From assembly GCA_964536975.1 (NCBI GenBank), contig CAZHYS010000002.1:12288-76287 (forward strand): a DNA stretch of 64,000 nucleotides, given 5' to 3'. The notes below the pieces were generated by a model. The model ran no database searches and was not told the DNA's origin. It saw nothing but the letters and a program-made list of their open reading frames with translations. A program made the position numbers and the translations under genes. This document shows, piece after piece, positions 2,600 through 62,318 of this stretch (position 1 is the first letter of the stretch; each line of letters starts with the position of its first letter). The DNA is from an uncultured Gammaproteobacteria bacterium. Its GTDB lineage: Bacteria; Patescibacteriota; Patescibacteriia; 2-01-FULL-39-33.

Positions 2600-2745
2600 A
2601 AAAAGTTTATAAAGTCGAATTAATTTGAGCCAAGAGTCCAAAGTCAGCCATGTTTTGACTTTATAAACGGTTCGGCTTCGCTCACCACAAGCTTTACGAA
2701 CTTTATAGACTTTCGACTCCATGGATTTTAGACTATTTTTCTACC
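2600..2745. repeat. Copy of the main interspersed intergenic repeat (R1), MITE-like with inverted arms
   Basis: The core is GGTTCGGCTTCGCTCACCACAAGC at 2670-2694. The arms GAGTCCAAAGTC and GACTTTCGACTC are mutual reverse complements. Confidence 0.5.
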
Positions 2746-8676: not shown

Positions 8677-9076
8677 ATCCCGCCTCGGTCCTGGTTAGTT
8701 ATGGTTGTGTGCCGCCAACTCCCTTTCTTGAAGGTGACTTTGGAGCGGAATAGGAGTGGGAGGAGACACGTTGACCGAGGCGGGAAAGCAAAACTCCCGT
8801 TTTTCCCATCAGAAAGAAGTGAGCCATGGCCGCGGAGAGGTTTCTACTAGTACAGCCATCGCCCAAAAGGCAAGCGATCGCAGAACGCGCAGACAAGGAT
8901 GGGAAAGGGAGTAGTAAAGAACAGTTTATTGTTTGTAATGATAACACAATGCGTGGAAAAAGCAAATACTTTAACTTCTAATCGCGTATCTGCTTGTTGA
9001 TTACAGCTTTACAGATGGTTCGACTCCGCTCACCACAAGCTTTACAAACTTTATAGATTTTCGACTCCATGGGCTT

Positions 9077-9106
9077 TTGACTTTTTAGACTTATTTATGA
9101 TATAAT
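9077..9106 (+). promoter_or_regulatory. Putative promoter inside an R1 repeat: TTGACT, 18-nt spacer, TATAAT
   Basis: It lies about 45 nt upstream of the M23 peptidase gene. Confidence 0.4.
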
Positions 9107-10402: not shown

Positions 10403-10690
10403 AATAAATTTCAAATTTGAAATTTTAAATTTCAAAACAATGGTTCGGCTTCGCTCACCACAAGTTTTTAATTTTCAAATCCGCCGCCGCGGATTGTTAA
10501 ATTGTCTAATTGCTATATTGTTTTTGTCTCTATTATGGAGATAAAACCCGACAATTTTACAATTTAACAATGTAACAATTCTTTAATTTGACTTTTTGAC
10601 TTTATAGACTTTAAGAACTCCTGCCTACCGCCTGCCTGCCGGTAGGCAGGGCAGGCAGGTTCAACTTTACGGACTTTATAAACTAAACCA

Positions 10691-12324: not shown

Positions 12325-13290
12325 TTACTTTTCGCCGCTATGAAACTTTTTGTGGACTTCCTTGAGATGGGGGTTGGTCAAGTGGGTGTAAATCTGAGTA
12401 GTAAGTATATTCTTGTGCCCCAAGAGTTCCTGAACACTGCGAAGATCGGCGCCCTGATTCAATAAATCTGTCGCGTAGCTATGGCGCAAGGTATGAGGCG
12501 TGGCGCTAATCGGCAAACCAGCCATGGCTGTGTATCGCTTGACCATCCTTTCAACTGATCTGATATTCAAACGATGTTCGTCTTTTTTGTCGGCGCTAGG
12601 ACGGTAATTGATAAATAGGGGAGGGCAGAGGTCATCTCTGGTCTGCAGATATTTGGCCAGCCAGCCCATTGACCGCCGGGAAAAATAAACCACTCGGCTG
12701 ACGCCGCCTTTACCAAAGATATTCAATTCGTAATCGGAAAATTTATTTTTCAACAAATCATTCTTATTGAATTGAGATATATTAAGCGACGTTAATTCTG
12801 ATACCCGCATCCCGGTAGAGAAGAGCGCCTCCAATATCGCTCGATCCCGCAAACCATCAACTGAAGATATGTCGGGCATCGCCAGCAGCTTTTCAATCTG
12901 TTCAAATTTCAAAAATTTTATTGCTTTGTCCTTGTCGGTTAATTTTGGCAATTTAACTTTATCTGCCGGCAGAGAAATAATATCTTTATCGGTAAAATAG
13001 CTCAAAAGATTACGTAAGGCGATCAAGTAATAGTTCTGGGTCGTCTTTTTGATATACTTGTCCTTATTATCCTTTTTTCGCGACAAATATAGACGATAAT
13101 CCCAAACATGGTCTGGGGTGAGCTCATGAGGCCTAAGATCGCTTAAATCGCGAATTTTGAGCCAATTGATGAACATCTTAAGGAAGTTATGATAATTGCG
13201 GGTAGAAGCCGGACTAAGGCCTTTTTCTACCTCACAGTAAGCCAGAAAATCAGGGATGTGCTTTATTATGGAAATAGTAGATTTTTTCAT
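12325..13290 (-). CDS. Tyrosine site-specific recombinase, XerC/XerD family
   Basis: C-terminal catalytic motifs HTLRHSYAT...LLGH...IYTHL. Confidence 0.8.
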   Translation of the reverse strand: MKKSTISIIKHIPDFLAYCEVEKGLSPASTRNYHNFLKMFINWLKIRDLSDLRPHELTPDHVWDYRLYLSRKKDNKDKYIKKTTQNYYLIALRNLLSYFTDKDIISLPADKVKLPKLTDKDKAIKFLKFEQIEKLLAMPDISSVDGLRDRAILEALFSTGMRVSELTSLNISQFNKNDLLKNKFSDYELNIFGKGGVSRVVYFSRRSMGWLAKYLQTRDDLCPPLFINYRPSADKKDEHRLNIRSVERMVKRYTAMAGLPISATPHTLRHSYATDLLNQGADLRSVQELLGHKNILTTQIYTHLTNPHLKEVHKKFHSGEK

Positions 13291-19169: not shown

Positions 19170-19349
19170 GGGAGTATGTTGATTAATTTCTAATTTTTAA
19201 TTTAAAATTTTAAAACAATTTTTAATGGTTCAGCTTCGTTCACCACAAGTTTTCGATTTAAAATTTACAATGAATTTTCAATTATCAATTTTTAAAATTA
19301 CTGATTACCGCCTTACAGACTTTTGACTTTATGGACTTTAGACTTTTGA

Positions 19350-21776: not shown

Positions 21777-21908
21777 AGTTTAAGCGATTAGCTTTTAGCG
21801 TTTAGGGATTAGTAACTAGGAGTTAGGAGTTAGGAATTAGAGTCATTATTTGTCATTCCGACCGGAACGATCCGCCTCGGGCGGAAGAGATTAAAAAAAT
21901 CTTAATTT

Positions 21909-23441: not shown

Positions 23442-24183
23442 AAAAAAATAATTCTACTATTGATATTATACCACAAAAATTATCAGCAAAAAAATATCCG
23501 TAATTTGAAATCCCGTCCAGTCCCGAGAGATCGGGAGCGGGACGGGATCCGGAGAAAGTTGATCGCTCTGCGAAAACTTCACTTATAAAAAAGAAAAAAG
23601 ATTTCTTGATTGTGAATGTTGGAAGCAAAACGATATATTCAACTCCTCTCCAAAGATTATAACAATGAAAAAAAATAAAGACAATAAATATTTTTTGTCA
23701 AGAGGAAAAAAATAAAATATTGTGATCGGCAATCAGTAATAATTGTAGAGACGCGATTCATCGCGTCTGGAAGTAATTAGTAACGAGTAACCGGTAACGG
23801 AACTCGTAATAGTGTGTCATCCCGACTGAGGACGCCCCAAGCGGACGAGTGGAGCCTGCCTGCCGGCAGGCAGGAGTCCGTAAAGTCATAATGTCATAAA
23901 GTCCAAGGTCAATCACATTTGACTTTATAGACTTTATGGACTTTTGACTTTTAACCAAGCTGCTCAAACATAAAAGCGGCGCTGACAAGTCAGAACCGCT
24001 TTTATGTTTTTGAAATTTAACACTGCCATTTTGGCAGCTATGGGAAAGAAAAAAAATATTTGAAAGAGCCCTTTCCCGCTTAAACCGGCAATTCAAATTG
24101 CTGGCTTGAGCGGAATGAGGAGATAGATAGTCAAAGAGCGAATCTCTTTTTTCTCTATCTCCTCAAGTTGTTCGGAGGGGGTC

Positions 24184-25931: not shown

Positions 25932-26116
25932 AACTCAAAAAATCCCCTTAAACAAAAATCCACAATAAAACAGATAAAAATTAAAATAAATTTTCAATAA
26001 TTTAATTTTAAAATTACTAATTATAGACTTTACGAATGGTTCGGCTTCGCTCACCACAAGCTTTATGGACTTTTGACTTTACTGACTTTCGACTTTTAAC
26101 TGTTTAATCTTCCATG

Positions 26117-35116: not shown

Positions 35117-35524
35117 TCCAAACAAGCTGGATGACTGCCCGGGCTCAACCTAAAAAATTAAGCGCGGGAGGAAAGTCCGAACACCCTTTCCGAGCAATCG
35201 GAATGTCATGGCAATGGCTAACGGCCATCCGTTCCGCCGCGAGACGGAATGAGGACCAGTTCCACAGAGACAATACTATCCCGAATCTTTCGGGACAAAG
35301 GTGAAAAGTGTGAAGGTGTTTTAAATTGGGTCAGAGATATCTCCTCAACTTAAAGCTGCTTCACTCGGCCTCTGGCAACAGAGTGCCCGTGGTAAACTCT
35401 GCCTGGTGCAACCCCAAATACAGTCGGGGGCTTGAGCCGGCCAGTAATGACCGGCCCAGATAGATAGTCATCGCTTTGCTCTTATGGCAAAGAACAGAAT
35501 TCGGCTTACAAGCTTGTTGGGACG
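35117..35524 (+). ncRNA. rnpB: RNase P RNA, bacterial type A
   Basis: The P4 strands GGAAAGTCCGAAC and ACAGAATTCGGCTTA are present. The segments GTGCCCGTGGTAAACTCTGCC and GCTTGAGCCGGCC align to E. coli M1 RNA. The P1 ends are complementary and a terminator follows at 35524-35572. Confidence 0.85.
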
Positions 35525-36094: not shown

Positions 36095-37834
36095 TTATTC
36101 GCTCAACCTCAAATCCACAATCTTCAACTGCAATTCCCTGTTCCCATTCCACTCATTTACTCCCAAATCAAACACCACATCTATCTTATCGCCTGATTTC
36201 AGTTTAGCACACCAACCGCCAAAGGAAAAACCGATTAGCTTATGGATATCCGGGCTGGATTCTTGGCTGGCCAACACCCGCAAATGCCGGCCGTCAGCGC
36301 CAACGACCTGCGCGCTTTCCACTATAAGCCCCGAAACGCAAAACAACGGTTTGGGATTGCCCTCGCCAAACGGCTCAAATTTCTCCAGTTCTTCCCAAAG
36401 ATCCCAGTTGATATCTTTTAATTCCACTTCCGCCTCCACCTCCAATAGCGACCGCAAATCAACGCCAGCCAGCTGCTTCTCGGCCAATTCATCCAACCGG
36501 GTTTTGAACTTTTGAAAATTATCATCGCCAATGACAGTAAATCCGCAAGCCTGGCTATGTCCGCCGAATCGCTGTAGAAATTCCGCGACCTCGCCAAGCG
36601 CGGCGGTAATATTGAATTCTTCAATACTCCGCCCCGAACCGACATATTTATCGCCAGCGCGGGAAATTACCAAAGCCGGCCGATGATATTTATCGGCCAA
36701 TCTCCCGGCCACCAATCCGACAATGCCGCCGGGCCAATTGTCCCCCACCACCCACAACATCTTTTTCTTTTCCAATTCCGGCTCAACTTGGCTTTCCGCT
36801 TCTTTTAGCAGTTCCACGGTGATTTGCTGGCGTTCCCGGTTATTGTTCTCCAAAATTTCCACCAGCCTTTCCGCTTCCGCCTCTGATCGGGAATTTAGCA
36901 AATTGAAAGCGACCGAAGCATGATCCACCCGTCCAGCGGCGTTTATCCGCGGCACCACTCGCCAGCCGAGATATTGCGTATCAATGCCGGCGGCAGTATT
37001 GTTTATTTTCGCCATCATTTTTTTGAGTCCCAACCGCTTGGTTTTTTTGAGTACCACCAGTCCGTACTTCACCAGCACCCGATTTTCACCCAGCAGATCG
37101 CAAATATCCCCTACGGTCGCGATTGCCGTCAAATCCAACAGCCACTTGTCAAATCCGGCCGGCAATTTCAGCGGCAGATCATCCTTGTTCTGCCGGATGA
37201 TCATCGCTTGCGCCAATTTGAAAGCGACGCCCGCGCCAGACAACCCCGAAAAGGGGTAGCCCGAGTCCTTAACTGACGGATTGATTATCGCCAGCGCCGG
37301 CGGCAATTTTTCCGGCTCCTGGTGATGATCGGTAACAATGACATCCACGCCGGCTTCATTGAAAATCTCTATTTCTTCCCAATTGGAGATGCCGCAGTCA
37401 ACCGTCACCACCAATTGAAAACCTTGTTTGATTATCTGCCGGGCTATTTCTTTATTGAGGCCATACCCTTCCGTCTCGCGAAAAGGAATATAAATATCGG
37501 TATCCAGCCCCAGACTCCGGAAAGTCTGGTATAAGATCGTTGACGCACAGACGCCGTCGGCGTCATAGTCGCCATAAACCATCACTTTTTGCTTTTTTGC
37601 CACCGCGGCAAAAATCCTGTCCACGGCTTTATTCATATCCTTGAACAAAAACGGATCCAAAACCTGTTCGTCATAATTTGGATTCAAAAAATCGTCAATT
37701 GCTTTTTTGTCCTTTAGTCCCCGATTAAAAAGCAACTGGACAATAATGTTGTTCATCTCCGGAAACCGCTCGCTGTCGGCCGGAGTCATTTTTGGCAATA
37801 GCTGCCACCTTTTTTCCATAAAAAATTTTGACAA
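36095..37834 (-). CDS. recJ: Single-stranded-DNA-specific exonuclease RecJ
   Basis: DHH-family motifs GDYDADGVCAS and DHH. Confidence 0.85.
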   Translation of the reverse strand: MSKFFMEKRWQLLPKMTPADSERFPEMNNIIVQLLFNRGLKDKKAIDDFLNPNYDEQVLDPFLFKDMNKAVDRIFAAVAKKQKVMVYGDYDADGVCASTILYQTFRSLGLDTDIYIPFRETEGYGLNKEIARQIIKQGFQLVVTVDCGISNWEEIEIFNEAGVDVIVTDHHQEPEKLPPALAIINPSVKDSGYPFSGLSGAGVAFKLAQAMIIRQNKDDLPLKLPAGFDKWLLDLTAIATVGDICDLLGENRVLVKYGLVVLKKTKRLGLKKMMAKINNTAAGIDTQYLGWRVVPRINAAGRVDHASVAFNLLNSRSEAEAERLVEILENNNRERQQITVELLKEAESQVEPELEKKKMLWVVGDNWPGGIVGLVAGRLADKYHRPALVISRAGDKYVGSGRSIEEFNITAALGEVAEFLQRFGGHSQACGFTVIGDDNFQKFKTRLDELAEKQLAGVDLRSLLEVEAEVELKDINWDLWEELEKFEPFGEGNPKPLFCVSGLIVESAQVVGADGRHLRVLASQESSPDIHKLIGFSFGGWCAKLKSGDKIDVVFDLGVNEWNGNRELQLKIVDLRLSE

Positions 37835-39794: not shown

Positions 39795-40272
39795 AAATAA
39801 AAGCTGATAATACTAAACTATTATATCAGCCAAGAGAGAGAAAATCAAGAACACCGGGGTTGAGGGGTAGTAATTAGTAATCGATAATAATCGTGGAGAC
39901 GCGATAAGCTCGCGTCTAAAAGTAATCAGTAACGAGTAATCGGTAACGGAACTCGGCAGACAGTGTCATCGCGAGTCCGCCGTGGCGGACGTGGCGATCC
40001 CATATTTATATTGTCATCCCGACTGAGGACGCCCCAAGCGGACGAGTGGAGGGATCCCCTGCCTACCGGCAGGCAGGCTCCACTTGTCTGCTTGAGGCAC
40101 CTGTCCGCATTGGGTGGAGACTCGCAATGACAACAGTGACGGATTTAAAAATAAAAATCAAAAAAAATCACCCCCGCAATCGCTACAAAAAAGCAATTGC
40201 GGGGGCTAATGGGCTAAGGATCCAAAGGCAAAAAAATCCAAAGAACCTTTGCCTGCCTGCTGGCAGGCAAGT

Positions 40273-41113
40273 TCAAAGGGCTAATTCTTGCGGGACGGAC
40301 CAGGCGAAACCGCCACCGTCATACCACTGGCGGCCAGGATGGCCGTAATACGCGTGCAGCCGCCGACCAGTGTCGTAGCGGAGCGCGGCCAGGAGGCGCG
40401 GGCGGCCGCCAGAATCAGGGATGGGAGGATGCATGACGACGATGTACTGAAAACCAAGGGCTTTAATTTCCTCGTCCGTGAGATAATCGCGGATAAGGCA
40501 GCCAACCTCGGGGTTCGGATCGGTGAGGTTCTGACCGTTGGTAAATGCCCCGGTCTCGGCGTCTTGACGCATGTGCTGCGTCAGTCGCTCGTTGTCCCGC
40601 CAGAGCTTGGCTGGCAGAATGGCGATGCGGTGGACAACACCGGTGGTCGGCTGGAACTGTTTGGAGCGAAGGACGCTTTTGGCGTAATCGCTCAAGTCAT
40701 CGCCCTTCTGCTGGAAGTAAGTGATCCACTTTTTCCCTGTCCGTCCGGTAGTGGCGGGAAAGGTGATATAGATCACGCCGTTGGTGGCGACTGTCCACTT
40801 CGGTTTGAGACACTTCTGGTAATCCTCAACTGAGATGGTGCCTTGGGGGGCTGACTAGTGACGCCAGCATCTTAAAATCGACGACATATGGAACAAGGGG
40901 CGTGGAAGGGACGGCCGGGGTAGGACGGGCGGTGATGACCAAATCACCGGAATTTACCCGCCGGATTGCTTCATCCGGACTGTCGGCGCCGGTCTCTCTC
41001 ATAATATTTTTGACCAACGCGTTGAGCTTACCCAACCCGGGTAGCACCTCCATAATGGCAAGTCGCGGCTTCGCCCTTTCCGTTCCCTGATTTTCTGCGT
41101 CTCTATTTCCCAT
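40273..41113 (-). pseudogene. GC-rich foreign ORF split by a frameshift or stop (95-aa and 167-aa pieces)
   Basis: The two minus-strand ORFs are adjacent but in different frames. An in-frame TAG at 40855-40857 interrupts the downstream frame. GC content is far above the flanks. Confidence 0.35.
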
Positions 41114-41228
41114 GATTATCTCCTCACTCGCTCAATTGCGAGTTTCTGTTTTCCCTCTCATCCGAGGGCAGAACCACGGCTACCACAGTAGCAGCCACAG
41201 CCAAAAGATTTCAATAAAGTCCTCCCGT

Positions 41229-41440
41229 GTCATCCCGACTGAAGCGATCCGCCTCGGGCGGAGAGCGAAATGGAGGGATCCCTCCATGCGTTCATCCCGA
41301 GTACTCGGGACTCACTTAGTCGGGATGACACTATAATCAATATCTTTTGGCTATGGCCGCTTTTTTTACCAATTATTGTTTCAAGGTACTTATATATAAT
41401 TATAACACGCCTTAAATGTTTTGTCAATGGCAACCCAATA
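41229..41440. mobile_element. MITE-like palindromic element (R5) plus a shared ~100-bp tail
   Basis: It has terminal inverted repeats GTCATCCCGAC...GTCGGGATGAC and a near-copy at 47204-47450. Confidence 0.5.
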
Positions 41441-41480
41441 TTTTGTTTAAAATAAGGAAAAAAAATAAAAAAATTGTTAA

Positions 41481-41693
41481 ATTGTCCGCCGCGGCGGATT
41501 GTCAAATCGTCATTAACTCCCGAATTTAGAGTCAACACCCAACAATATAACAATATGACAATTTAACAATTGCCGTTTTAAAATTGAAGCATTGAAAACT
41601 TGTGGTGAGCGAAGCCGAACCATTCATTGAAAATTTAAAATTATAAATTAGAAATTTTATTAGAAATTAGACATTAGAAATTAGAAATTTTTC
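41481..41693. repeat. Left inverted repeat flanking murJ; perfect or near-perfect reverse complement of 43576-43789
   Basis: I reverse-complemented one arm and compared it base-for-base by eye with the other over ~213 bp. Each arm contains the R4 palindrome, the R1 core, and TAGAAAT-type heptamer repeats. Confidence 0.7.
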
Positions 41694-41723
41694 TAACTCC
41701 TAATCCCTAAACGCCAATCGCTG

Positions 41724-43445
41724 TTATACCCCTTCTCCTTCCCTCATCACATCTTCGGCCACCGCTGGACTGACCTTCTTGAGTAGTTTCTTCCTCATTG
41801 ACGCGACAAAAATCGCCATCTCTTCCATATTTAGCAGCCAGCCAAACAGCCAATAGCCAAGCATTCCGCCGCCGCCGGCGATTCCGCCTTGCAATAAAAT
41901 TCCCAAAAAAGTATCAGTGGCCACATATACATTAAGCGCCTGAAGCAAGCTGTAAGTAATCAGCCCGGCGGCCAAAGAAGCGAATAAAATCCTAATTGAT
42001 GAATCAACGATTTTCCGGCCGTCCAATCGGCCGATTTTAAACTTAAGCCAAATCATCAGCAGAATCAGATTGACAACCGAAGAAGCGCCAATCGCCGCCG
42101 GCAAAGCAAGAATGCGCAAGTCCCCCACTTCCCACAAATCAGCGATTTTTAGGATAGCGACAGTAAAAAAAGAAAACCAATTATCAAAACTGAATATCCA
42201 GCGGAAAAAGAATAACGCCGCCAAATTCGCCGCCAACGAAAAAACTCCGATATAAAAGGGTGTCCGACTGTCATGCAAGGCATAAAAAGCGCGAATCAGC
42301 AGCGGTAAGGCGCTCTGGGCAAACAAGCTCAAGGCAAAAATTGCCAGACTGGCGGCGGTCAACCGCGTGTCCAGCCAGTCAAACTGGCCGGCACCGAGAA
42401 TAACTCTGACGATTTGCGCCCTTAGCACGTAAAACAGAATTGACACCGGCACGATCAAAAATAGCACCTGACGGAAAGTGACAGAAAAAGTTTCAACGAA
42501 TCCGGTTAAATTCTTTTTTGCCGCAAGCAGAGACAGAGCCGGCAAAGCCGCCACCGCGAAAGAAACGCCAAAAATTCCCAAGGGAAAACTTTGCAAATTA
42601 TTGGCCAAATTAAAAATCGCCAATGAGCCGACGGCCAAAGTGGAAGCGACCATGGTTACTGTCAAAATATTTACCTGATTGATTACCAGCGTCAAGGTGC
42701 GCGGGATCATCATCCGGCCGACCAAGCGGACGTTTTTGTCTTTTAACCCAAAAATCGGCGCGTAGCGATAGCCGGAGGAAAAAACTGTCGGCAATTGGAC
42801 CAACAGATGCATTGCCGCGCCCAAAACCACGCCCCAGGCCAAACCATAAAGTCCCCACTCGGGAACAAAATAAATCGCGCCGATGATAATGCCGATGTTA
42901 TAAAAAATCGGCGCGAGCGAATAAGCGAAAAATTGTTTGAATGATTGGAGAATTGAGCCAATCACCGCCGAAATGCCCAAAATCAGCGGGCTCAAAAACA
43001 TTATCCGTGACAATTGCGTCACCAGCGCCAATTTTTCCTCATCAAATCCGGGCGTAATTAGTGGCATTATTTGAGGAGCAAAAACAAAAAAAATTCCGCA
43101 AATTATTACCAGCCCGGCAATCACCAAATTCAAAATGCTATTTATCAGCCGCCAAGCTTCTTTTTTCTTGCCGCTTAGAAACGAGCTATTCTCTATCAGT
43201 CCGGTAAACACCGGGATTAGGCCGGCAGAAATCGCGCCCAAAACCAAAAGATTATACACCAAATCTGGCAGACGAAATGCCGCGTAATAAATATCCAGTT
43301 CGTTGCCCGCGCCAAAATGCGACGCCAGAATCCGGTCGCGAAAAATGCCGAGAAACCGGCTGACCAAAGACAGGGCGCCGATGATGATCGCCGCCGAAGT
43401 AATTGTCCTGGCTTGGGAATTAATAATTTTTTTGAACCCAAACAT
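41724..43445 (-). CDS. murJ: Lipid II flippase MurJ
   Basis: 573 aa, a multi-pass MviN/MurJ family protein with the N-terminus RFLGIFRDRILASHFGAG. Confidence 0.85.
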   Translation of the reverse strand: MFGFKKIINSQARTITSAAIIIGALSLVSRFLGIFRDRILASHFGAGNELDIYYAAFRLPDLVYNLLVLGAISAGLIPVFTGLIENSSFLSGKKKEAWRLINSILNLVIAGLVIICGIFFVFAPQIMPLITPGFDEEKLALVTQLSRIMFLSPLILGISAVIGSILQSFKQFFAYSLAPIFYNIGIIIGAIYFVPEWGLYGLAWGVVLGAAMHLLVQLPTVFSSGYRYAPIFGLKDKNVRLVGRMMIPRTLTLVINQVNILTVTMVASTLAVGSLAIFNLANNLQSFPLGIFGVSFAVAALPALSLLAAKKNLTGFVETFSVTFRQVLFLIVPVSILFYVLRAQIVRVILGAGQFDWLDTRLTAASLAIFALSLFAQSALPLLIRAFYALHDSRTPFYIGVFSLAANLAALFFFRWIFSFDNWFSFFTVAILKIADLWEVGDLRILALPAAIGASSVVNLILLMIWLKFKIGRLDGRKIVDSSIRILFASLAAGLITYSLLQALNVYVATDTFLGILLQGGIAGGGGMLGYWLFGWLLNMEEMAIFVASMRKKLLKKVSPAVAEDVMREGEGV

Positions 43446-43575
43446 TGTCTGGCTGTATAAAAACCGTTAACTTAATTTTGATTTGGCGATTAGAGCGACC
43501 ACCACACCGACAAAAATAATGCCAAAAATTACGTAGGTCATGGGCTAGGAATTAGGAGTTAGGGATTAGGGATTG

Positions 43576-43789
43576 GAAAAATTTCTAATTTCTAATGTCT
43601 AATTTCTAATAAAATTTCTAATTTATAATTTTAAATTTTCAATGAATGGTTCGGCTTCGCTCACCACAAGTTTTCAATGCTTCAATTTTAAAACGGCAAT
43701 TGTTAAATTGTCATATTGTTATATTGTTGGGTGTTGACTCTAAATTCGGGAGTTAATGACGATTTGACAATCCGCCGCGGCGGACAATT
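43576..43789. repeat. Right inverted repeat flanking murJ
   Basis: See the left arm at 41481-41693. Confidence 0.7.
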
Positions 43790-43827
43790 AGTCAATTTGA
43801 CTTTACAGACTTTATAAACTTTTGACT

Positions 43828-45888
43828 TTATGAACTCATTCTCACATCCACGATCTTCGCGCCTTTGCCTTTGACGCCGACCATCACCGGATTGAAATCC
43901 ATTTCCTTCACCTGCGGATAGCGCTGGGCAAAATCGCCAGTCTTTACCAATATCTCCGCCACTGCCTCAATATCCAGCGGTTTTTGGCCGCGCGCGCCGG
44001 CAAACATTTTGGCAATTTTTAGATCACCGATCATCGCTCTGGCGGCCGCTTTATCAAACGGCGCGATTCTAAACGCGACATCCTTGAATATCTCGGCGTA
44101 AATCCCGCCCGCGCCGACCATTACCAGCGGGCCGAATTGCGCGTCGCGCTTCATACCGACAATTACCTCAAACCCTTTGACCATCTCCCCCACCAAAAAC
44201 CCGTCCAGCGCCGGAATCTTTTTTTTCATCTCGGCGATGGCCGCTGTCATCTCCTCAGTGTTTTTTATGTTTAATTTCACTCCGCCGACATCAGACTTGT
44301 GAGTGATTTTTTCCGACACGATCTTTATCGCCACCGGCCAGCCGATTTTTTCCGCCGCGCCAATCGCCGCTTTTCCATCGGCAGCAAACTCGGCTCGGTG
44401 CAAATTGAATCCCAAAGGCAATAATAATTTTCTAGCGTCAATTTCCGTCAACACCGCTTGATTGAAAATCTTATTTTCCGACGGTTTGATTTTTGATTTT
44501 GCGATTGTTAGCGGCGCCATCCTCATCCGGCTATACTGCCACATCCGGCCGAGCGTTTCCACTGCCTGATTGGGAAAATTATATACCGGCAAAGAATATT
44601 TTTGAAAAATATCATAATGGCCGGTGATCTTGGCTTCACCCATGAAACACGCCAATACCGTCTTGGTCGTCTTTTTGGCCAGGCGGCCGACAATCTCCGC
44701 GGTCTTGGCCACATCCGTCATCTTCTGCGGGGTTAATGCCACTATGACCGCGTCAACATTTTTGTCCTTCAAAGCCTCGCCCAGCGCCCATTCATAGCGA
44801 TCAGCGCCGGCATCGCCCAGAACATCAATGGGATTTTTGACGCTGGCCGCCGGGGGCAATTTTGATTTTATTTTTTTGGCCGCGGACGCGGACAACTCCG
44901 CCAATTCCAATCCGTGCGCCGACAGCAAATCCGTCAGCAATACGCCCGGCCCGCCGGCGTTGGTGATAATAGCCACGCGCTTGCCCTTTGGCAGCGCCTG
45001 CCAAGAAAAGCCTTTGGCCAAATTGAAAAAATCTTCCAAATCCCTCGCCTCAATCAATCCTGATTGGGCGAAGGCCGTACTATAAGCTTGCGCTGAACCG
45101 GCCAATGAGCCAGTATGCGAGGACACTGCCTGGCTGCCCTTCTCTGTTTTGCCGGCTTTTAGCACAACCACTGGCTTTTGGCCGGAGACGCGACTCGCCG
45201 TTTCCATGAACCGCCGGCCATCCCTGATATCTTCAAGGTAAGATATGATCACTTTGACTTTATCGTCGCTTCCGCAATATTCCAATAAATCATTTTCGTC
45301 AATGTCTAATTTGTTTCCCATACTGACAAAATAAGCCAAGCCGACTTTTTGCGCCTCCGCCAAGTCCAAAAATGCCGTACCCAAAGCGCCCGATTGGGAA
45401 AGAAAGGCGACATTGCCCCGCGTCGGCGTGCCGGGCGCGAAAGAAGCGTTGACCGGCAAAAGAGCGGAAATAAAGCCAAGACAGTTTGGTCCCAAAATTC
45501 TGATCTGATATTTTCCGGCAATTTTTTTGATTTCATTTTCCAGCGCCACCCCCGCTTCGCCTAATTCGCGGAAGCCGGCGGAAATAATGACGATGTTTTG
45601 GCATTTCTTCTTGCCACATTCTTCCACTGCTTCGGCGACAAATTGAGCCGGAATGACGATTATCGCCAAATCCACCGGCCCAGGCACTTTGGCAATGGAC
45701 GGATAAGCCGAAAGACCGGCAATGTTTTTTTCATCCAAATTGATCGGATAGATTTTGCCGGCAAAACTGTTTTTGAGATTGACCACAATATCATTGCCGA
45801 CCTTGCCCGGTTTGGCCGACGCGCCAATGACCGCGACTGATTTGGGATTGAAAAAAGGTTTGAGATTGGTTTTATTTTTAATTGGCAT
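43828..45888 (-). CDS. ADP-forming acetyl-CoA synthetase (NDP-forming acyl-CoA synthetase, fused alpha/beta)
   Basis: A CoA-binding N-domain VAVIGASAKPGKVGN and an ATP-grasp C-domain. Confidence 0.8.
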   Translation of the reverse strand: MPIKNKTNLKPFFNPKSVAVIGASAKPGKVGNDIVVNLKNSFAGKIYPINLDEKNIAGLSAYPSIAKVPGPVDLAIIVIPAQFVAEAVEECGKKKCQNIVIISAGFRELGEAGVALENEIKKIAGKYQIRILGPNCLGFISALLPVNASFAPGTPTRGNVAFLSQSGALGTAFLDLAEAQKVGLAYFVSMGNKLDIDENDLLEYCGSDDKVKVIISYLEDIRDGRRFMETASRVSGQKPVVVLKAGKTEKGSQAVSSHTGSLAGSAQAYSTAFAQSGLIEARDLEDFFNLAKGFSWQALPKGKRVAIITNAGGPGVLLTDLLSAHGLELAELSASAAKKIKSKLPPAASVKNPIDVLGDAGADRYEWALGEALKDKNVDAVIVALTPQKMTDVAKTAEIVGRLAKKTTKTVLACFMGEAKITGHYDIFQKYSLPVYNFPNQAVETLGRMWQYSRMRMAPLTIAKSKIKPSENKIFNQAVLTEIDARKLLLPLGFNLHRAEFAADGKAAIGAAEKIGWPVAIKIVSEKITHKSDVGGVKLNIKNTEEMTAAIAEMKKKIPALDGFLVGEMVKGFEVIVGMKRDAQFGPLVMVGAGGIYAEIFKDVAFRIAPFDKAAARAMIGDLKIAKMFAGARGQKPLDIEAVAEILVKTGDFAQRYPQVKEMDFNPVMVGVKGKGAKIVDVRMSS

Positions 45889-46041
45889 ACCGCATTGACT
45901 TTATAAATGGTTCGACTTCGCTCACCACAAGCTTTACGAACTTTATGACTTTTGACTTTATGAACTATCTCCATTCTACCACAAATTTTAAGATAAAAAA
46001 ACGCCCGCGCTTCTCTTCCGTGAGAAACGCGGGGTAATTGT

Positions 46042-46407
46042 CTACTTAGTTGCCATATCGCACAGCAACTTAGTCATGTCACTGCCGATAGCAGCCGCTT
46101 CTTCCGGCGGCAACGGCTTGGCAAACAGAAATGTCGCTTTCGTGCCGGCTGCCGGCATTTCTATCTGGACTGGATAGTAGCCGACGCGTTGAAATCTGTC
46201 CGCGTTGTCTTGGTGGGGAAAAACAATCACGAAACTTTCCCCGAAGAACAACGCTGATTTCACCGGCGATTGTCCTGCCCGCGCCCGGCCATTCTCTTCA
46301 AAAAACAAGACGCCTTTGAATATGATTTGCGAACCACCTAAGACACTCATTCCTTCTGTCCTCCTAATCTTATTTTCCGTCATAATTATATTCAGCGCCG
46401 ATCTCAC
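46042..46407 (-). CDS. Hypothetical protein
   Basis: A 121-aa ORF in a GC-elevated insert. Confidence 0.3.
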   Translation of the reverse strand: MRSALNIIMTENKIRRTEGMSVLGGSQIIFKGVLFFEENGRARAGQSPVKSALFFGESFVIVFPHQDNADRFQRVGYYPVQIEMPAAGTKATFLFAKPLPPEEAAAIGSDMTKLLCDMATK

Positions 46408-46492
46408 ATCAATCGACGCTTAAGCCGCAACAGACAAATCCAAAGGGCTAAGGATCCAAGGGCTTAATCCCAAAGGATCTTAGCGCTAAGGA

Positions 46493-47128
46493 CTAGTTAC
46501 TTGCGGGCACCGCAGCCGGATCATCGCCGTTAAAGTCGTGGACAAGCCAGTTGCAGTGCCAGTGCCACCCGCCGCCGCGCCAGACGAGGTAACGGACGCG
46601 CAAGTAGCCATCCGAGCCGCGATAGATGGTACCCCAGAAGAATATGGCTTTGCCCTTCCATTCTTCCGGAATGAGCTCGGGATGAGCCAGGAGGTAGTCC
46701 AAGAGACAGGCGTTGTAGACCGGCTTGCCGTTGAGCTTCTTACGAAGCTTGTTGCCGACGATCACACCGCCATTCTTTTGTTTTTCGTCCAGGTAGAGCA
46801 CTACCTTGGACGGATCCCACTCCATTTGACCGCCCTTGATGTGCTCTTCTACTTGCCAACCATCCGGTACGAACGGGTCGGCGTCCAGATCAATGAGGTG
46901 CTTTTGTTTGAACCCACCATCAAGTGAAGACAAAAAATCGGTAAGCTCCGCCGATTTTTCAATCCAGCTTTGTGCTACGGCCGATTCCAAAATCGGCACG
47001 CCGCGAATAAGTTGGACGATAAACTCTCGCCACTGGCGGAGAGCTTTTTTGACCGCCACTTTAACAATGCAGTCAACCTCTTCCTGAGTATACATCTTTT
47101 CTTTTGAGGCTTGTTCCGTTTTTTTCAC
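46493..47128 (-). CDS. Hypothetical protein with a Trp-rich C-terminus
   Basis: 211 aa in a GC-elevated insert. I recognise no family. Confidence 0.4.
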   Translation of the reverse strand: MKKTEQASKEKMYTQEEVDCIVKVAVKKALRQWREFIVQLIRGVPILESAVAQSWIEKSAELTDFLSSLDGGFKQKHLIDLDADPFVPDGWQVEEHIKGGQMEWDPSKVVLYLDEKQKNGGVIVGNKLRKKLNGKPVYNACLLDYLLAHPELIPEEWKGKAIFFWGTIYRGSDGYLRVRYLVWRGGGWHWHCNWLVHDFNGDDPAAVPASN

Positions 47129-47203
47129 GGCTTATTCCTCCTTCTTAGTACGCGCCAGCGGGCTGCCCAATGCAGCCATAGCCAGAAAATACCAATTGTA
47201 GCG

Positions 47204-47450
47204 TCATCCCGACTAAGTGAAGCCCTCCCGTCCCGAGTGCCCGGGACGGGAGGGACGAACGCATGGAGGGATCCCTCCACGGAGTTTACCCTGAGCGTAG
47301 TCGAAGGGGTCGGGATGACACGGGAGGACTTTATCAAGATAATATTTCAGTATCTTTTGGCTATGGCCGTTTTTTTGCCAATAATTGCTTGTAAGGTACT
47401 AATATATAATTATAGCATATCTAAAATATTTTGTCAATAGTTAAATCAGC
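47204..47450. mobile_element. Second copy of the MITE-like R5 element with an inverted core
   Basis: It has the same terminal repeats and tail as 41229-41440. The central segment is in the opposite orientation. Confidence 0.5.
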
Positions 47451-48154
47451 TAAAAATAATAAAAGTGGCTAAAATTAGAGAAAAAATATATCACCATAAA
47501 TCTACAAATCAGCCGCGGCATCTGCCTCCTCTATAGGCGCTTGCCAGCCTTTGGCGGGGACGAGCGCCCGTAATGGGGACGGTTTCCAATGATTGGATTA
47601 TTGTGTTTTATGCGACCATTAATAAATCTTGTGCTAATTTTATGCGAAAGCGAGCGCTAAAAATTTTCGCAAGCGAAGCGTCAGAAAATTTTAGCGAGCG
47701 AAGCATAAAATTTAGCCATGATTTATTACCGGTCGCGACTTTTGCGCCACTTTTCTAGAAAAGTGGCATAAAAAAATAATTTATTTTTAAAATAAGATCG
47801 CCACGTCCGCCATTGCGCCTGTCCGCCTTGGGTGGAGACTCGCGATGACACGACTTGCCGAGTTCCGTAAAAACGCCCCGGCAGAGTGTTCCTGTGCTGG
47901 CGCAATTAAATTTTAATTTCATCAAAAAGAGACGCCCCGAATATTCGGGACGTCTCTGCAAATTGGGCGGGGGCATCCGCCTCCGCGCGAGCTACGGCGA
48001 GACAAGCGCCCCGCCCCTACAAATATTTTTGCTCCGTGTTATTTGATTTTCTTGGTTCCGTAAAGACGTTGCGTCGCGACGTCTCTACAAAATTCCTATT
48101 ACTGATTACCGATTACAGATTACAGATTACAGATTACTGGTTACTAATTATTTA

Positions 48155-61425: not shown

Positions 61426-62124
61426 TTATTTATTAAAAAATTTACCCAACTTCTCCACTCTTATCGCGTCCTTCGCCTCAAACTCCCCCACTCTGCTTCG
61501 TTCCAAATCAGACAAATAACCGCCGACACCCAGCTCCTGGCCAATATCGCGAGCCAAAGCGCGAATGTATGTCCCCTTGCCACAAATGACTTTTATCCGC
61601 AAATCAGGATATTTATATTTTAAAATTTTTATTTCCCTGATTTCCACCGGTCGAGGCAAAAGTTCCACCTCCTTGCCGGCGCGAGCGGATTTATACGCTC
61701 GCCTCCCCTTCACTTTTATCGCGCTAAACTGCGGCGGAATCTGATTGATCTGCCCGACGAATTGTTTTATTATTTTTTCAATTTTAATTTTACTGACGAT
61801 TCGACTCCGCTCACCACAAGCTTTACGGACTTTTGACTTTATGGACTTTATAGACTTAATTCCTTCTTCATCATCAGTCGTACTCGTCATGCCCAATCTA
61901 ATGTCAGCAATGTATTCTTTTTCCTGGCCGACGATTTCCGACAGTTGCCTGGTTGCTTCGCGGCCGACGCCAATCACCAAAACGCCGCTGGCCAAAGGAT
62001 CCAGAGTGCCGGCATGACCGACTTTTTTGACTCCGGACAATTTTCTCACTCTGGCGACAATATCAAAAGAGGTCGGCCCCTTCGGCTTGTAAATACCAAA
62101 GATATTTTTAGTTTTGACATCCAT
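61426..62124 (-). CDS. truB: tRNA pseudouridine(55) synthase carrying an in-frame repeat insertion
   Basis: KPKGPTSFDIV...HAGTLDPLASGVL...TTDD. The start at 62124 (MDVKTK) is preferred over the upstream ATG at 62160 in the ORF track. Confidence 0.85.
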   Translation of the reverse strand: MDVKTKNIFGIYKPKGPTSFDIVARVRKLSGVKKVGHAGTLDPLASGVLVIGVGREATRQLSEIVGQEKEYIADIRLGMTSTTDDEEGIKSIKSIKSKVRKACGERSRIVSKIKIEKIIKQFVGQINQIPPQFSAIKVKGRRAYKSARAGKEVELLPRPVEIREIKILKYKYPDLRIKVICGKGTYIRALARDIGQELGVGGYLSDLERSRVGEFEAKDAIRVEKLGKFFNK

Positions 62125-62318
62125 ATTAAATTTGCTGCGCTCTAATATTCTTGCTGCCACCGCTCAGGGCAAGCTCCTTCGGCTTGTAAATACCAAAGAT
62201 ATTTTTAGTTTTGACATCCATATTAAATTTGCTGCGCTCTAATATTCTTGCTGCCACCGCTCAGGGCAAGCTCCTTCGGCTTGTAAATACCAAAGATATT
62301 TTTAGTTTCTTTCTCCAT
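62086..62318. repeat. 97-bp tandem direct repeat, two perfect units plus a diverged partial third
   Basis: A repeat marker recurs at 62087, 62184 and 62281, giving a period of 97. Each unit contains the truB start codon and its first 15 codons. Confidence 0.8.

What the first reader, a model, noticed from the sequence alone, without database searches (positions are those of the whole stretch)
41229..41440. Two copies of a MITE-like hairpin element (R5) whose core is inverted between copies
41229-41335 and 47204-47320 both have terminal inverted repeats GTCATCCCGAC / GTCGGGATGAC. The internal ~85 bp of one copy is the reverse complement of the other, while the flanking arms (CCATAGCCAAAAG / CTTTTGGCTATGG) and the ~100-bp tail (ATCTTTTGGCTATGGCCG-T7-...AAGGTACT-ATATATAATTATA) keep the same orientation. 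This could be a small invertible segment or just a long near-palindrome. Fragments of the same element occur at 21843-21880, 23808-23850 and 40011-40050.
Basis: seen in the sequence. Interest (0 to 1): 0.55.

Follow-up and report, generated by a model that had tools for sequence, protein, structure and literature searches.

The report
Hairpin repeat inside conserved leader RNA
The two "R5" copies are ordinary selfish hairpin repeats of a known, widespread kind. Each has landed, in opposite orientation, in the tip of a conserved and so far undescribed leader-RNA hairpin of a candidate-phyla-radiation bacterium. They are not a DNA switch.

Summary
Both loci carry GTCATCCCGAC/GTCGGGATGAC-bounded cores, and their asymmetric landmarks point in opposite directions relative to shared flanks.

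The parts are not one element. The "tail" is a perfect sigma-70 promoter on the minus strand. The "arms" are the stem of a structured 5' leader RNA conserved in at least 43 loci of Patescibacteria (CPR). Covariation for it is strong: 18 of 22 pairs show compensatory changes, and it has no Rfam match. In relatives the apical loop is 3-7 nt. In this window it holds inserts of 122 nt and 151 nt.

Each insert is an inverted dimer of TGTC/CGTC-tagged hairpin repeats. It shares its ends and its GGAGGGAYC box with more than 117 loci across many phyla. This matches the "CGTC REP" superfamily, which includes Neisseria dRS3/NTS. In relatives, such repeats bracket small GIY-YIG (Ssn-type) nuclease genes.

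The stem's conserved wobble pairs keep their ancestral orientation right up to the loop in both copies. So the flipped unit is exactly the insert, and no inverted repeat sits at its boundaries. The best reading is two acquisitions in opposite orientation, not an invertible segment. Orientation heterogeneity could not be tested.

Interest is modest. The leader RNA is the more novel by-product.

The parts
41399..41427 (-).
   Evidence: 12/12 consensus match. It is one of 8 perfect matches in the window against 0 expected. The same promoter-to-hairpin layout occurs in 36/39 homologous loci.
41337..41360 (-). Copy 1 leader-RNA stem P1, 5' strand (GCGGCCATAGCCAAAAGATATTGA), the promoter-proximal 'arm'
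   Evidence: Covariance model R1 hits 41157-41365(-) at 39.2 bits, E=4.6e-8. Alignment.
41215..41336 (.). Copy 1 insert (122 nt) in the apical loop of P1: TTATAGT, then the TIR-bounded core 41229-41329, then ACGGGAGGACTTTA (as read on the minus strand)
   Evidence: The loop is 3-7 nt in 38/43 homologous leaders and 122 nt here. Both strands fold as ssDNA at -36/-37 kcal/mol, z about -7.
41191..41214 (-). Copy 1 P1 stem, 3' strand (TTGAAATCTTTTGGCTGTGGCTGC), the gene-proximal 'arm'
   Evidence: The conserved U.G pair (columns 27-305) keeps its ancestral orientation.
40826..41113 (-). 95-aa ORF served by leader copy 1 (GAGGAG, 6 nt, ATG)
   Evidence: No Pfam hit. Not detectably homologous to the 211-aa family.
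47409..47437 (-). Copy 2 promoter: TTGACA, 17 nt, TATAAT
   Evidence: 12/12 match.
47347..47370 (-). Copy 2 P1 stem, 5' strand (ACGGCCATAGCCAAAAGATACTGA)
   Evidence: R1 hits 47140-47375(-) at 46.7 bits, E=3.7e-10.
47196..47346 (.). Copy 2 insert (151 nt) in the apical loop of P1, in the opposite orientation to copy 1; TIR-bounded core 47203-47319
   Evidence: ssDNA folds at -37/-39 kcal/mol on the two strands.
47172..47195 (-). Copy 2 P1 stem, 3' strand (TTGGTATTTTCTGGCTATGGCTGC)
   Evidence: Both conserved wobble pairs (G.U at 22-310, U.G at 27-305) are kept. The stem is nearly identical to the insert-free relative L167.
46493..47128 (-). 211-aa gene served by leader copy 2; member of a conserved hypothetical family of Patescibacteria
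   Evidence: 1068 homologs, 60-70% identical over the C-terminal two thirds. AF2 model pLDDT 87.6, with no PDB fold match.
39965..40131 (.). Composite of the same repeat superfamily: outer pair GTCATCGCGAG ... CTCGCAATGAC enclosing a GTCATCCCGAC arm (40013-40051) and other small hairpins
23816..23874 (+). Solo arm GTCATCCCGACTGAGG...GAGTGGAG plus the CCTGCCTGCCGGCAGGCAGG module (40 nt identical to 40012-40051)
   Evidence: (D17, I5).
21852..21886 (+). Solo variant arm GTCATTCCGAC plus the CCGCCTCGGGCGG module shared with copy 1

Best explanation
"R5" is a composite of two unrelated things.

(1) A conserved expression signal of Patescibacteria (CPR), shown here. It consists of a consensus sigma-70 promoter on the minus strand, about 40 nt of A-rich leader, then a long RNA hairpin (P1: GYRGYCATAGCCAAAAG...loop...TTTTCTGGCTATGRCYRC) upstream of CPR-specific genes. 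The "tail" is the promoter plus the 5' end of the leader.

(2) An insert in the 3-7-nt apical loop of P1, found only in this organism among the leaders examined. It is 122 nt at copy 1 and 151 nt at copy 2. Each insert is an inverted dimer of TGTC/CGTC-tagged hairpin repeats (tag + ATCCCGAC ... GGAGGGAT + CC). The two units abut at GGAGGGATCCCTCC, and their loops carry further nested mini-hairpins. The insert belongs to the cross-phylum CGTC-REP / NTS-like repeat superfamily. Relatives of this superfamily bracket small Ssn-type GIY-YIG ssDNA nuclease genes.

The two leaders are old paralogues, and each acquired the insert in the opposite orientation. That it was acquired is shown. The route is inferred: either independent insertion into the loop of an extruded hairpin, or ectopic copying between the two leaders, which the palindromic stem would allow in either orientation.

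The insert is itself a hairpin that stacks on P1, so either orientation preserves the leader's basal stem. The insert is therefore probably tolerated rather than functional (inferred).
For: Promoters are 12/12 matches on the minus strand. The whole leaders fold into one long multibranch hairpin: -125.8 kcal/mol (z -9.8) and -114.6 kcal/mol (z -6.3).

The 211-aa gene is a CPR family. Insert-free homologous loci carry the same hairpin. Covariance model R1 finds it on the sense strand in 43 unique instances, the two window loci among them.

On a structure-blind MAFFT alignment of 34 leaders, 93.9% of cells are paired, against 75% for shuffled and at most 46% for slid controls. 18 of 22 pairs have double-sided changes. 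The covariation score is 0.555, against 0.206 for shuffled and at most 0.119 for slid controls. Conserved G.U (30/34) and U.G (27/34) pairs indicate selection on the sense RNA. A promoter with at least 10/12 matches lies upstream in 36/39 loci.

Loop lengths are 3-7 nt in 38/43 leaders, 24 nt in L188, 38-39 nt in L122/L123, and 122 and 151 nt in the window. The P1 wobble pairs are unflipped in both window copies, and copy 2's stem matches insert-free L167.

The core family occurs in more than 117 loci across Acidobacteriota, Alphaproteobacteria, Bacteroidota, Gemmatimonadota, Chloroflexota, CPR and others. 90/116 carry GGAGGGAYC or its complement, and the base before the TIR is T or C in 112/116. 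Gene context is 32 convergent against 9 divergent. About 14% are nested in larger palindromes.

The published definition of CGTC REPs, and their nesting inside palindromes, comes from PMC3733652. GIY-YIG genes sit between such repeats. The Ssn/NTS system is described in PMC11893778.
Against: The window's repeat units have 31-45-nt loops instead of 4-5 nt, and they fail the published SRM search pattern. No Ssn or RAYT gene lies in the 64-kb window, and the rest of the genome could not be read, so the mobilising enzyme is unknown here.

Only two full copies are available, so insertion junctions and target-site rules are not resolved. Independent insertion cannot be separated from ectopic conversion. 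Orientation heterogeneity within a population was not testable: short-read contigs break at these repeats.
Confidence: 0.75

Rival explanations
1. A past in-situ inversion. One insertion predated or was copied between the two leaders, and the segment then flipped in place in one of them, for example by template switching within the palindrome. It does not switch today.
For: The insert lies between 24-nt inverted arms. The whole insert, including sequence outside the TIRs, is flipped. Exact 26-, 22- and 18-nt blocks are shared between the copies, although the surrounding leaders are only about 78% identical.
Against: Recombination between the arms should flip the inner part of the arms too, turning the conserved G.U and U.G pairs into A.C mismatches on the sense strand. 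Both copies keep the ancestral pattern up to the last stem pairs. The insert termini (TTRTAGY / ACGGGAGGACTTTA) are not inverted repeats of each other.
Confidence: 0.12
2. An active phase-variable DNA switch. A recombinase inverts the segment between promoter and gene and so changes expression, as in the 5'-UTR switches of Clostridioides difficile (cwpV, flgB; from my own knowledge).
For: The position between a strong promoter and the start codon, flanked by inverted arms. One tyrosine recombinase gene lies in the window at 12325-13290.
Against: The arms are a covarying RNA stem present without any insert in 41 of 43 homologous leaders. The flip boundaries do not lie in any inverted repeat. 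Both orientations give equivalent hairpins on either strand, so no ON/OFF asymmetry is apparent. The recombinase is 28 kb away and looks like an ordinary Xer-type gene. The one independent assembly (L001) has the same orientation as the window at copy 2.
Confidence: 0.04
3. A classical MITE: a deletion derivative of a DDE-transposase insertion sequence with 11-12-bp TIRs, moved by cut-and-paste with a target-site duplication.
For: Perfect TIRs. Possible 4-bp direct repeats at the insert ends, read in the orientation of the insert: ATAA/ATAA at copy 1 and ATAA/ACAA at copy 2.
Against: Cross-phylum copies show no direct repeats at their ends, only further inverted complementarity. No IS with these ends was seen. 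Neighbour-gene clustering over 117 loci found no transposase, only small GIY-YIG genes. The unit architecture (tag, stem starting AT, tail, inverted dimer) is that of REP-type repeats.
Confidence: 0.07

Closest known systems
CGTC-tagged REPs (Di Nocera et al. 2013, PMC3733652), including Neisseria dRS3 and Rickettsia RPE-4/RPE-6
   Same: The terminal tag is CGTC or TGTC, and the stem begins with A-T then T-A (ATCCC.../...GGGAT). There is a C-rich tail, and the units are organised as inverted dimers that can fold into one long stem-loop. The location is intergenic and mostly downstream of genes. Dimers are sometimes nested in the centre of longer palindromes, and the distribution is cross-phylum. 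Relatives such as L018 (TGTC|ATCCCGAC|GAAA|GTCGGGAT|CCAG) fit the definition exactly.
   Different: In the window the unit loops are 31-45 nt with nested mini-hairpins, not 4-5 nt. The stem has a tandem G.A/A.G interruption, and the two units abut with no spacer. Patescibacteria were not among the five phyla reported. Here the host palindrome is a functional RNA hairpin.
NTS/SRM repeats and Ssn GIY-YIG ssDNA nucleases (Chenal et al. 2025, PMC11893778)
   Same: Tagged hairpin repeats related to CGTCATTCCCGC...GCGGGAATCC. Repeats with the window's exact ends, or lineage variants of them, bracket about 95-aa single-domain GIY-YIG genes in Acidobacteriota and Reyranella-like Alphaproteobacteria. 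This is the published repeat-gene-repeat layout.
   Different: The published SRM search pattern matches neither the window's units nor the ATCCCGAC-type relatives. No Ssn homologue lies in the window. Membership of the GIY-YIG genes I saw in cd10448 was not tested.
REPINs and RAYT transposases (Bertels & Rainey 2011, PMC3116915; PMC3337134)
   Same: Two inverted REPs forming a hairpin of about 100 nt. The element is non-autonomous and multi-copy, and the associated enzyme gene is single-copy, syntenic and flanked by the repeats.
   Different: REPINs carry a GTAG-type tag and depend on a Y1 HuH transposase. Here the tag is TGTC/CGTC, and no Y1 transposase was found in the window.
5'-UTR invertible switches of Clostridioides difficile (cwpV, flgB); my own knowledge, not checked in a paper here
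   Same: A segment flanked by inverted repeats, located between a promoter and the coding sequence.
   Different: Those flip at their own inverted repeats through a recombinase, and both orientations coexist at one locus. Here the two orientations are at two different loci, and the surrounding repeat is a conserved RNA stem that is not flipped.

Membership tests
CGTC-tagged REP superfamily (PMC3733652) | Unpaired terminal tag CGTC (TGTC or CCTC allowed) | tested here: met
   The four ends read TGTC, TGTC, CGTC, TGTC. In 116 relatives the preceding base is T (74) or C (38).
CGTC-tagged REP superfamily (PMC3733652) | Stem of 8-9 bp whose first two pairs are A-T and T-A | tested here: inconclusive
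   ATCCCGAC against GGAGGGAT gives A-T, T-A, three C-G pairs, tandem G.A/A.G, then C-G. The start is right, but the stem is interrupted.
CGTC-tagged REP superfamily (PMC3733652) | Loop of 4-5 nt | tested here: not met
   Window units have 31-45 nt between ATCCCGAC and GGAGGGAT, filled by nested hairpins. Relatives of type GTCATCCCGAC-GAAA-GTCGGGATCC do meet it.
CGTC-tagged REP superfamily (PMC3733652) | Inverted dimers able to fold as one large stem-loop; intergenic; multi-copy | tested here: met
   Folds. There are 11 matches to GTCATYNNGAS in 64 kb; 10 are R5-type half-sites in intergenic stretches and the eleventh (33906, GTCATCTGGAC) was not examined. Genome-wide copy number is not testable.
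NTS/SRM-Ssn system (PMC11893778) | Match to the SRM search sequence HGTCWYN(0-2)YYVSBRHN(0-5)WNVSBRGN(0-2)RNCYNB | tested here: not met
   One hit in the window at 37312, unrelated to R5, against a shuffle mean of 0.22. There were 8 hits in 864 kb of related loci. The canonical NTS control matches.
NTS/SRM-Ssn system (PMC11893778) | A single-domain GIY-YIG (Ssn) gene flanked by the repeats in the same genome | not testable with these tools
   None in the window by tblastn. In other organisms, repeats with the same ends do flank such genes.
REPIN-RAYT | GTAG-type tag and a Y1 (HuH) RAYT gene flanked by the repeats | tested here: not met
   The tag is TGTC/CGTC. Pfam scans of 40 of the window's ORFs, almost all of them 150 aa or longer and 13 without any Pfam match, found no PF01797-type protein. 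Whole genome not testable.
Site-specific invertible DNA switch | Inverted repeats at the boundaries of the flipped segment | tested here: not met
   The flipped unit is the insert (41215-41336; 47196-47346). Its termini are not inverted repeats. The TIRs lie inside it, and the P1 stem outside it is not flipped.
Site-specific invertible DNA switch | Both orientations present at one locus in a population | not testable with these tools
   Only short-read contigs were available and they break at the repeats. L001 agrees with the window's orientation at the gene-proximal half of copy 2.
DDE-type MITE | Target-site duplication and a parent IS sharing the TIRs | tested here: inconclusive
   ATAA/ATAA and ATAA/ACAA are possible at the two window inserts. 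No direct repeats occur at 115 related copies. No parent IS was seen.
Any Rfam family (for the arms / leader hairpin) | Covariance-model match | tested here: not met
   No hit at the gathering threshold in the window. No relevant hit at E<=10 over 39800-47600; the two listed, sR34 and Glutamine-II, score far below gathering. None at E<=1 in six insert-free loci.

The most novel reading that the evidence does not exclude
The conserved hairpin may be the core of a new, CPR-specific cis-regulatory leader RNA serving several unrelated gene families from very strong promoters. Its apical loop may be a recurrent landing site for small hairpin repeats: the R5 dimers here, a CCTGCCTGCCGGTAGGCAGG module in L188, and a 38-nt extension in L122/L123. 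If so, NTS/CGTC-type repeats would spread by inserting into the single-stranded loops of extruded hairpins. That would be a first clue to how the Ssn-associated repeats move.
Probability: 0.3. Interest if true: 0.65.

Novelty: new member of a known kind. Interest (0 to 1): 0.42.

Why it matters
For the finding as posed, the result is deflationary. There is no phase-variation switch. There is a REP/NTS-type selfish repeat sitting where it does least harm.

Three things make it worth keeping:

- It extends the CGTC/NTS repeat superfamily to a Patescibacteria genome. It also shows exact 11-mer ends and a GGAGGGAYC box shared across at least seven phyla, including variants that the published SRM search pattern misses.
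- It is a clean natural example of a repeat dimer occupying the apical loop of a functional RNA hairpin. The insert-free ancestral state is documented in dozens of relatives, which bears on how such repeats choose targets.
- It exposes a strongly covarying leader RNA, absent from Rfam, upstream of CPR-specific proteins of unknown fold and function. This is a tractable entry point into gene regulation in a group with almost no known regulatory RNAs.

Tried and rejected
- A metagenome scan for the arm plus T-run (ATCTTTTGGCTATGGCCGYTTTTTT) found nothing, so no second population was available from that collection.
- Exact-protein look-ups for the 95-aa ORF and for the NCBI version of the 211-aa protein found nothing.
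- Look-ups for MurJ and PPDK gave only contigs that end at the neighbouring repeats. No independent assembly spans R5.
- Full-text searches for the repeat strings returned only primer coincidences.
- Rfam gave nothing for either the core or the leader.
- I first treated the arms as the TIRs of a larger element, and the T7 run as a plus-strand terminator. I rejected this once the minus-strand promoter and the conserved A-rich 5' leader segment were seen in relatives.
- I suspected the two downstream genes were paralogues. BLASTP and profile comparison do not support that.
- I thought the GIY-YIG association might be new. It is published.
- An alternative pairing of the P1 3' strand with a downstream GGTAG segment holds only in a subgroup (13/34 leaders), so I do not build on it.
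- A structure search for the 211-aa protein gave no significant PDB match.

Full report
THE OBSERVATION

Both reported copies are bounded by exact GTCATCCCGAC / GTCGGGATGAC repeats: 41229-41239 with 41319-41329, and 47203-47213 with 47309-47319. The 11-mer occurs 8 times in the window at up to 1 mismatch, against 0.65 expected.

Three blocks match between the loci only as reverse complement. These are 26 nt at 100%, 28 nt at 96% and 57 nt at 81% (I25, I21, I3). By contrast, a 92-nt flank matches directly at 78% (D12). For the region between the arms, a global alignment scores 107 in the inverted orientation and 51 in the direct one. Shuffled controls gave a mean of -41.

Each copy is itself near-palindromic, and about a third of the core consists of unrelated modules, so "reverse complement" is only about two-thirds true. 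The opposite orientation is nonetheless unambiguous. The fragments at 21852, 23816 and 40013 are real.

WHAT THE FLANKS ARE

All neighbouring genes lie on the minus strand: LepA, MurJ, an ADP-forming acyl-CoA synthetase, PPDK and RecJ. The window looks like a Patescibacteria chromosome.

The window has eight perfect promoters of this kind against none expected. The elements therefore sit in the 5' leaders of the 95-aa ORF 40826-41113 and the 211-aa gene 46493-47128, each of which has a good Shine-Dalgarno sequence. Both leaders fold into one long multibranch hairpin, with z-scores of -9.8 and -6.3.

The 211-aa protein belongs to a conserved hypothetical family of Patescibacteria with 1068 hits. 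Its predicted fold is confident (pLDDT 87.6) but has no significant PDB match.

THE ARMS ARE A CONSERVED LEADER RNA

Homologous loci from other samples carry the same arms closing a tiny loop. L121, for example, reads GTAGTCATAGCCAAAAGTCACTTA-GTTT-TAGGTGTTTTCTGGCTATGACTAC.

A covariance model built from seven such leaders finds the motif on the sense strand in 43 unique instances. The two window loci are among these 43 instances, at 46.7 and 39.2 bits, and nothing else in the window is found.

I then made a structure-blind MAFFT alignment of 34 leaders and counted pairs on it:
- 93.9% of cells are paired, against 75% for shuffled and at most 46% for slid controls.
- 18 of 22 pairs show changes on both sides.
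- The covariation score is 0.555, against 0.206 for shuffled and at most 0.119 for slid controls.
- A G.U pair (30/34) and a U.G pair (27/34) are conserved. On the opposite strand these would be A.C mismatches, so selection acts on the sense RNA.

A promoter matching at least 10 of 12 positions lies upstream in 36 of 39 loci, with its -10 element ending 30-82 nt (30-53 nt in 34 of the 36) before the 5' end of the aligned motif, 5 nt upstream of the stem. Rfam has no match, either in the window or in six insert-free loci.

At copy 1 the downstream ORFs are not detectably homologous to the 211-aa family. Other loci show the motif before yet other N-termini. The leader therefore serves more than one gene family.

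THE CORE IS AN INSERT IN THE APICAL LOOP

The apical loop is 3-7 nt in 38 of 43 leaders, 24 nt in L188, 38-39 nt in L122/L123, and 122 and 151 nt in the window. The window inserts are 41215-41336 and 47196-47346.

The stem of copy 2 (GATACTGA ... TTGGTATT) is almost the same as that of insert-free L167 (GATACTGA-AAUU-TCGGTATT). In both window copies the conserved wobble pairs keep their ancestral orientation up to the last pairs of the stem.

The flipped unit is thus exactly the insert. In one orientation it reads TTRTAGY, then the TIR-bounded core, then ACGGGAGGACTTTA. Its termini are not inverted repeats of each other, the TIRs lie inside it, and the surrounding stem is not flipped. An inversion by recombination between the arms would have flipped the inner stem and turned the wobble pairs into A.C mismatches. 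I therefore read the two orientations as two acquisitions, not an inversion.

The two leaders also belong to different subtypes. The 3' part of copy 1 resembles L171/L180, while copy 2 resembles the AGYCCGCTRGC type. They are old paralogues, each of which has insert-free relatives.

Both strands of both inserts fold equally well as ssDNA, at -36 to -39 kcal/mol. Orientation therefore does not change hairpin-forming ability.

WHAT THE CORE IS

These came from Acidobacteriota, Alphaproteobacteria, Cytophagales/Chitinophagales, Gemmatimonadota, Chloroflexota, Bacillota, Melainabacteria and CPR.

Family features from those loci:
- 90 of 116 copies carry GGAGGGAYC and/or its complement inside the ends.
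- The base before the end is T or C in 112 of 116.
- Copies lie between convergent genes 32 times, tandem genes 54 times and divergent genes 9 times, so they sit mostly downstream of genes.
- About 14% are nested in larger, locus-specific palindromes.

This is the architecture of the "CGTC-tagged REPs" of Di Nocera et al. 2013: a tag CGTC or TGTC, a stem starting with AT, a short loop, a CCA tail and inverted dimers. Those repeats have been reported in five phyla, correspond to dRS3 in Neisseria and RPE-4/6 in Rickettsia, and in some species are regularly inserted in the centre of longer palindromes. Some relatives fit that definition exactly, for example TGTC|ATCCCGAC|GAAA|GTCGGGAT|CCAG in L018.

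The window's units keep the tag, the ATCCC/GGGAT stem ends and the CC tail. They differ in having loops expanded by nested mini-hairpins and in abutting at GGAGGGATCCCTCC.

Other CPR loci almost lack such half-sites: 10 R5-type sites in the 64-kb window (GTCATYSSGAS pattern), against at most 1 in each of about 80 other CPR loci totalling about 215 kb. The family therefore expanded in this organism in particular.

THE ASSOCIATED ENZYME

I clustered the neighbouring ORFs of the 117 loci and found no transposase. I did find a GIY-YIG gene of about 94 aa sitting between repeat arms in four loci from two phyla.

Homologues from Reyranella-like contigs lie in conserved synteny (Radical SAM, GIY-YIG, NTP_transf_6, RNase HII). 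They sit inside an inverted dimer of lineage-specific variant repeats: CGTCGTCTCGAC...GGAGAGACC on one side and GGTCTCTCC...GTCGAGACGAC on the other.

This association is already published. Chenal et al. 2025 describe the Ssn family of GIY-YIG site-specific ssDNA nucleases, flanked by NTS/SRM hairpin repeats in a repeat-gene-repeat layout. Their SRM search pattern does not match the ATCCCGAC-type units or the window's units. No Ssn homologue or Y1 transposase lies in the window, and the rest of the genome could not be read.

HOW IT MOST LIKELY WORKS

Shown:
- A strong promoter and a conserved structured leader lie upstream of the genes.
- A REP/NTS-type inverted dimer occupies the apical loop of that leader.
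- The dimer has opposite orientations at two paralogous leaders.
- The basal stem of the leader is intact at both.

Inferred:
- The insert arrived either by a single-strand, hairpin-loop-directed process typical of such repeats, or by ectopic copying between the two palindromic leaders.
- It persists because a hairpin stacked on the tip of P1 leaves the leader's function intact.
- It has no orientation-dependent role.

The rivals are a historic in-situ flip (0.12), a classical DDE-type MITE (0.07) and an active switch (0.04). Each is listed separately with the evidence for and against it and what would refute it.

WHAT COULD NOT BE DONE

Orientation heterogeneity could not be tested. The only independent assemblies are short-read contigs that break in or next to these repeats. 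One of them, L001, agrees with the window's orientation for the gene-proximal half of copy 2. Genome-wide copy number and the presence of an ssn gene also could not be checked.

VERDICT

The "invertible segment" reading is not supported. The core is a new member of a known repeat superfamily. The arms and tail are a conserved promoter and a leader RNA absent from Rfam, and this leader is the more interesting by-product. Interest is 0.42.

Noticed in passing
window 41471-41710 and 43559-43798: A 240-nt inverted repeat, 98% complementary, brackets the MurJ gene (41724-43445, minus strand). Each arm is a mosaic of other window repeats (TCCGCCGCGGCGGA, the GGTTCGGCTTCGCTCACCACAAG box, AATTTCTAAT runs). 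Short-read contigs of MurJ from other samples end within about 160 nt of the gene, inside the arms. A 2.3-kb segment between such arms could invert by homologous recombination.
   Followed up: partly
L121-L202 (e.g. L121:455-545, L199:1237-1325, L152:1224-1313); window 41157-41365(-) and 47140-47375(-): The leader hairpin is a CPR-wide structured RNA candidate with no Rfam match. It also occurs twice in tandem in L171 (1111, 1291) and L184 (1297, 2701), and it lies upstream of genes with unrelated N-termini. Many of the start codons sit in a small palindrome (e.g. GTGGACAATGTCCAC). A conserved AGYCCGCTRGCA segment follows the hairpin in one subtype.
   Followed up: partly
window 2659-2738, 9007-9086, 10406-10472, 19191-19257, 26028-26107, 41591-41657(-), 43612-43678, 45899-45978, 61788-61867: A second abundant intergenic repeat family. 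It has a GGTTCG(G/A)CT(T/C)CGCTCACCACAAG box, usually followed by arrays of a 9-nt period (GACTTTATA/GACTTTTGA...). There are at least 9 copies in 64 kb (D1-D3, D5, I2, I6-I8, I12).
   Followed up: no
window 18655, 29747, 29785, 38002, 41485, 43771 (and variant at 39976): The 14-nt perfect palindrome TCCGCCGCGGCGGA recurs six times in intergenic DNA (D11, 39).
   Followed up: no
window 23855-23874, 40058-40078, 40249-40270; L188:~210-233: A small palindromic module CCTGCCTGCCGGCAGGCAGG recurs in the window. A near-identical module occupies the apical loop of the same leader hairpin in an unrelated CPR contig, L188. This suggests the loop is a recurrent landing site.
   Followed up: partly
window 62076-62308: A 97-nt unit is repeated head to tail about 2.4 times at 97-99% identity. 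It overlaps the start of ORF 61426-62160 on the minus strand (D10, D14).
   Followed up: no
L206-L230 (e.g. L216:611-1180, L226:620-1120); L062:2570-3093; L057:3991-4560: Small GIY-YIG (Ssn-like) genes sit inside inverted dimers of lineage-specific tagged repeats (CGTCGTCTCGAC...GGAGAGACC), in conserved synteny (Radical SAM, GIY-YIG, NTP_transf_6, RNase HII). Neither these repeat variants nor the ATCCCGAC type are captured by the published SRM search pattern.
   Followed up: partly
window 46493-47128 (-): The 211-aa CPR family has a confident AlphaFold model (pLDDT 87.6; C-terminal domain above 95) but no significant Foldseek match in the PDB (best E 0.3, TM below 0.3). The best hits are faintly like C-type lectins.
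   Followed up: partly
window 1034, 5499, 25421, 34237, 34784, 35011, 41399, 47409 (all minus strand): Eight perfect TTGACA, 16-18 nt, TATAAT promoters occur in 64 kb, against none expected. Three of them (25421, 41399, 47409) also share TATAATTATATATWAG after the -10 element (D9, 21, 23).
   Followed up: partly
window 35119-35524 (+): Bacterial RNase P RNA class A (178.8 bits). It was the only Rfam hit in the window at the gathering threshold.
   Followed up: no
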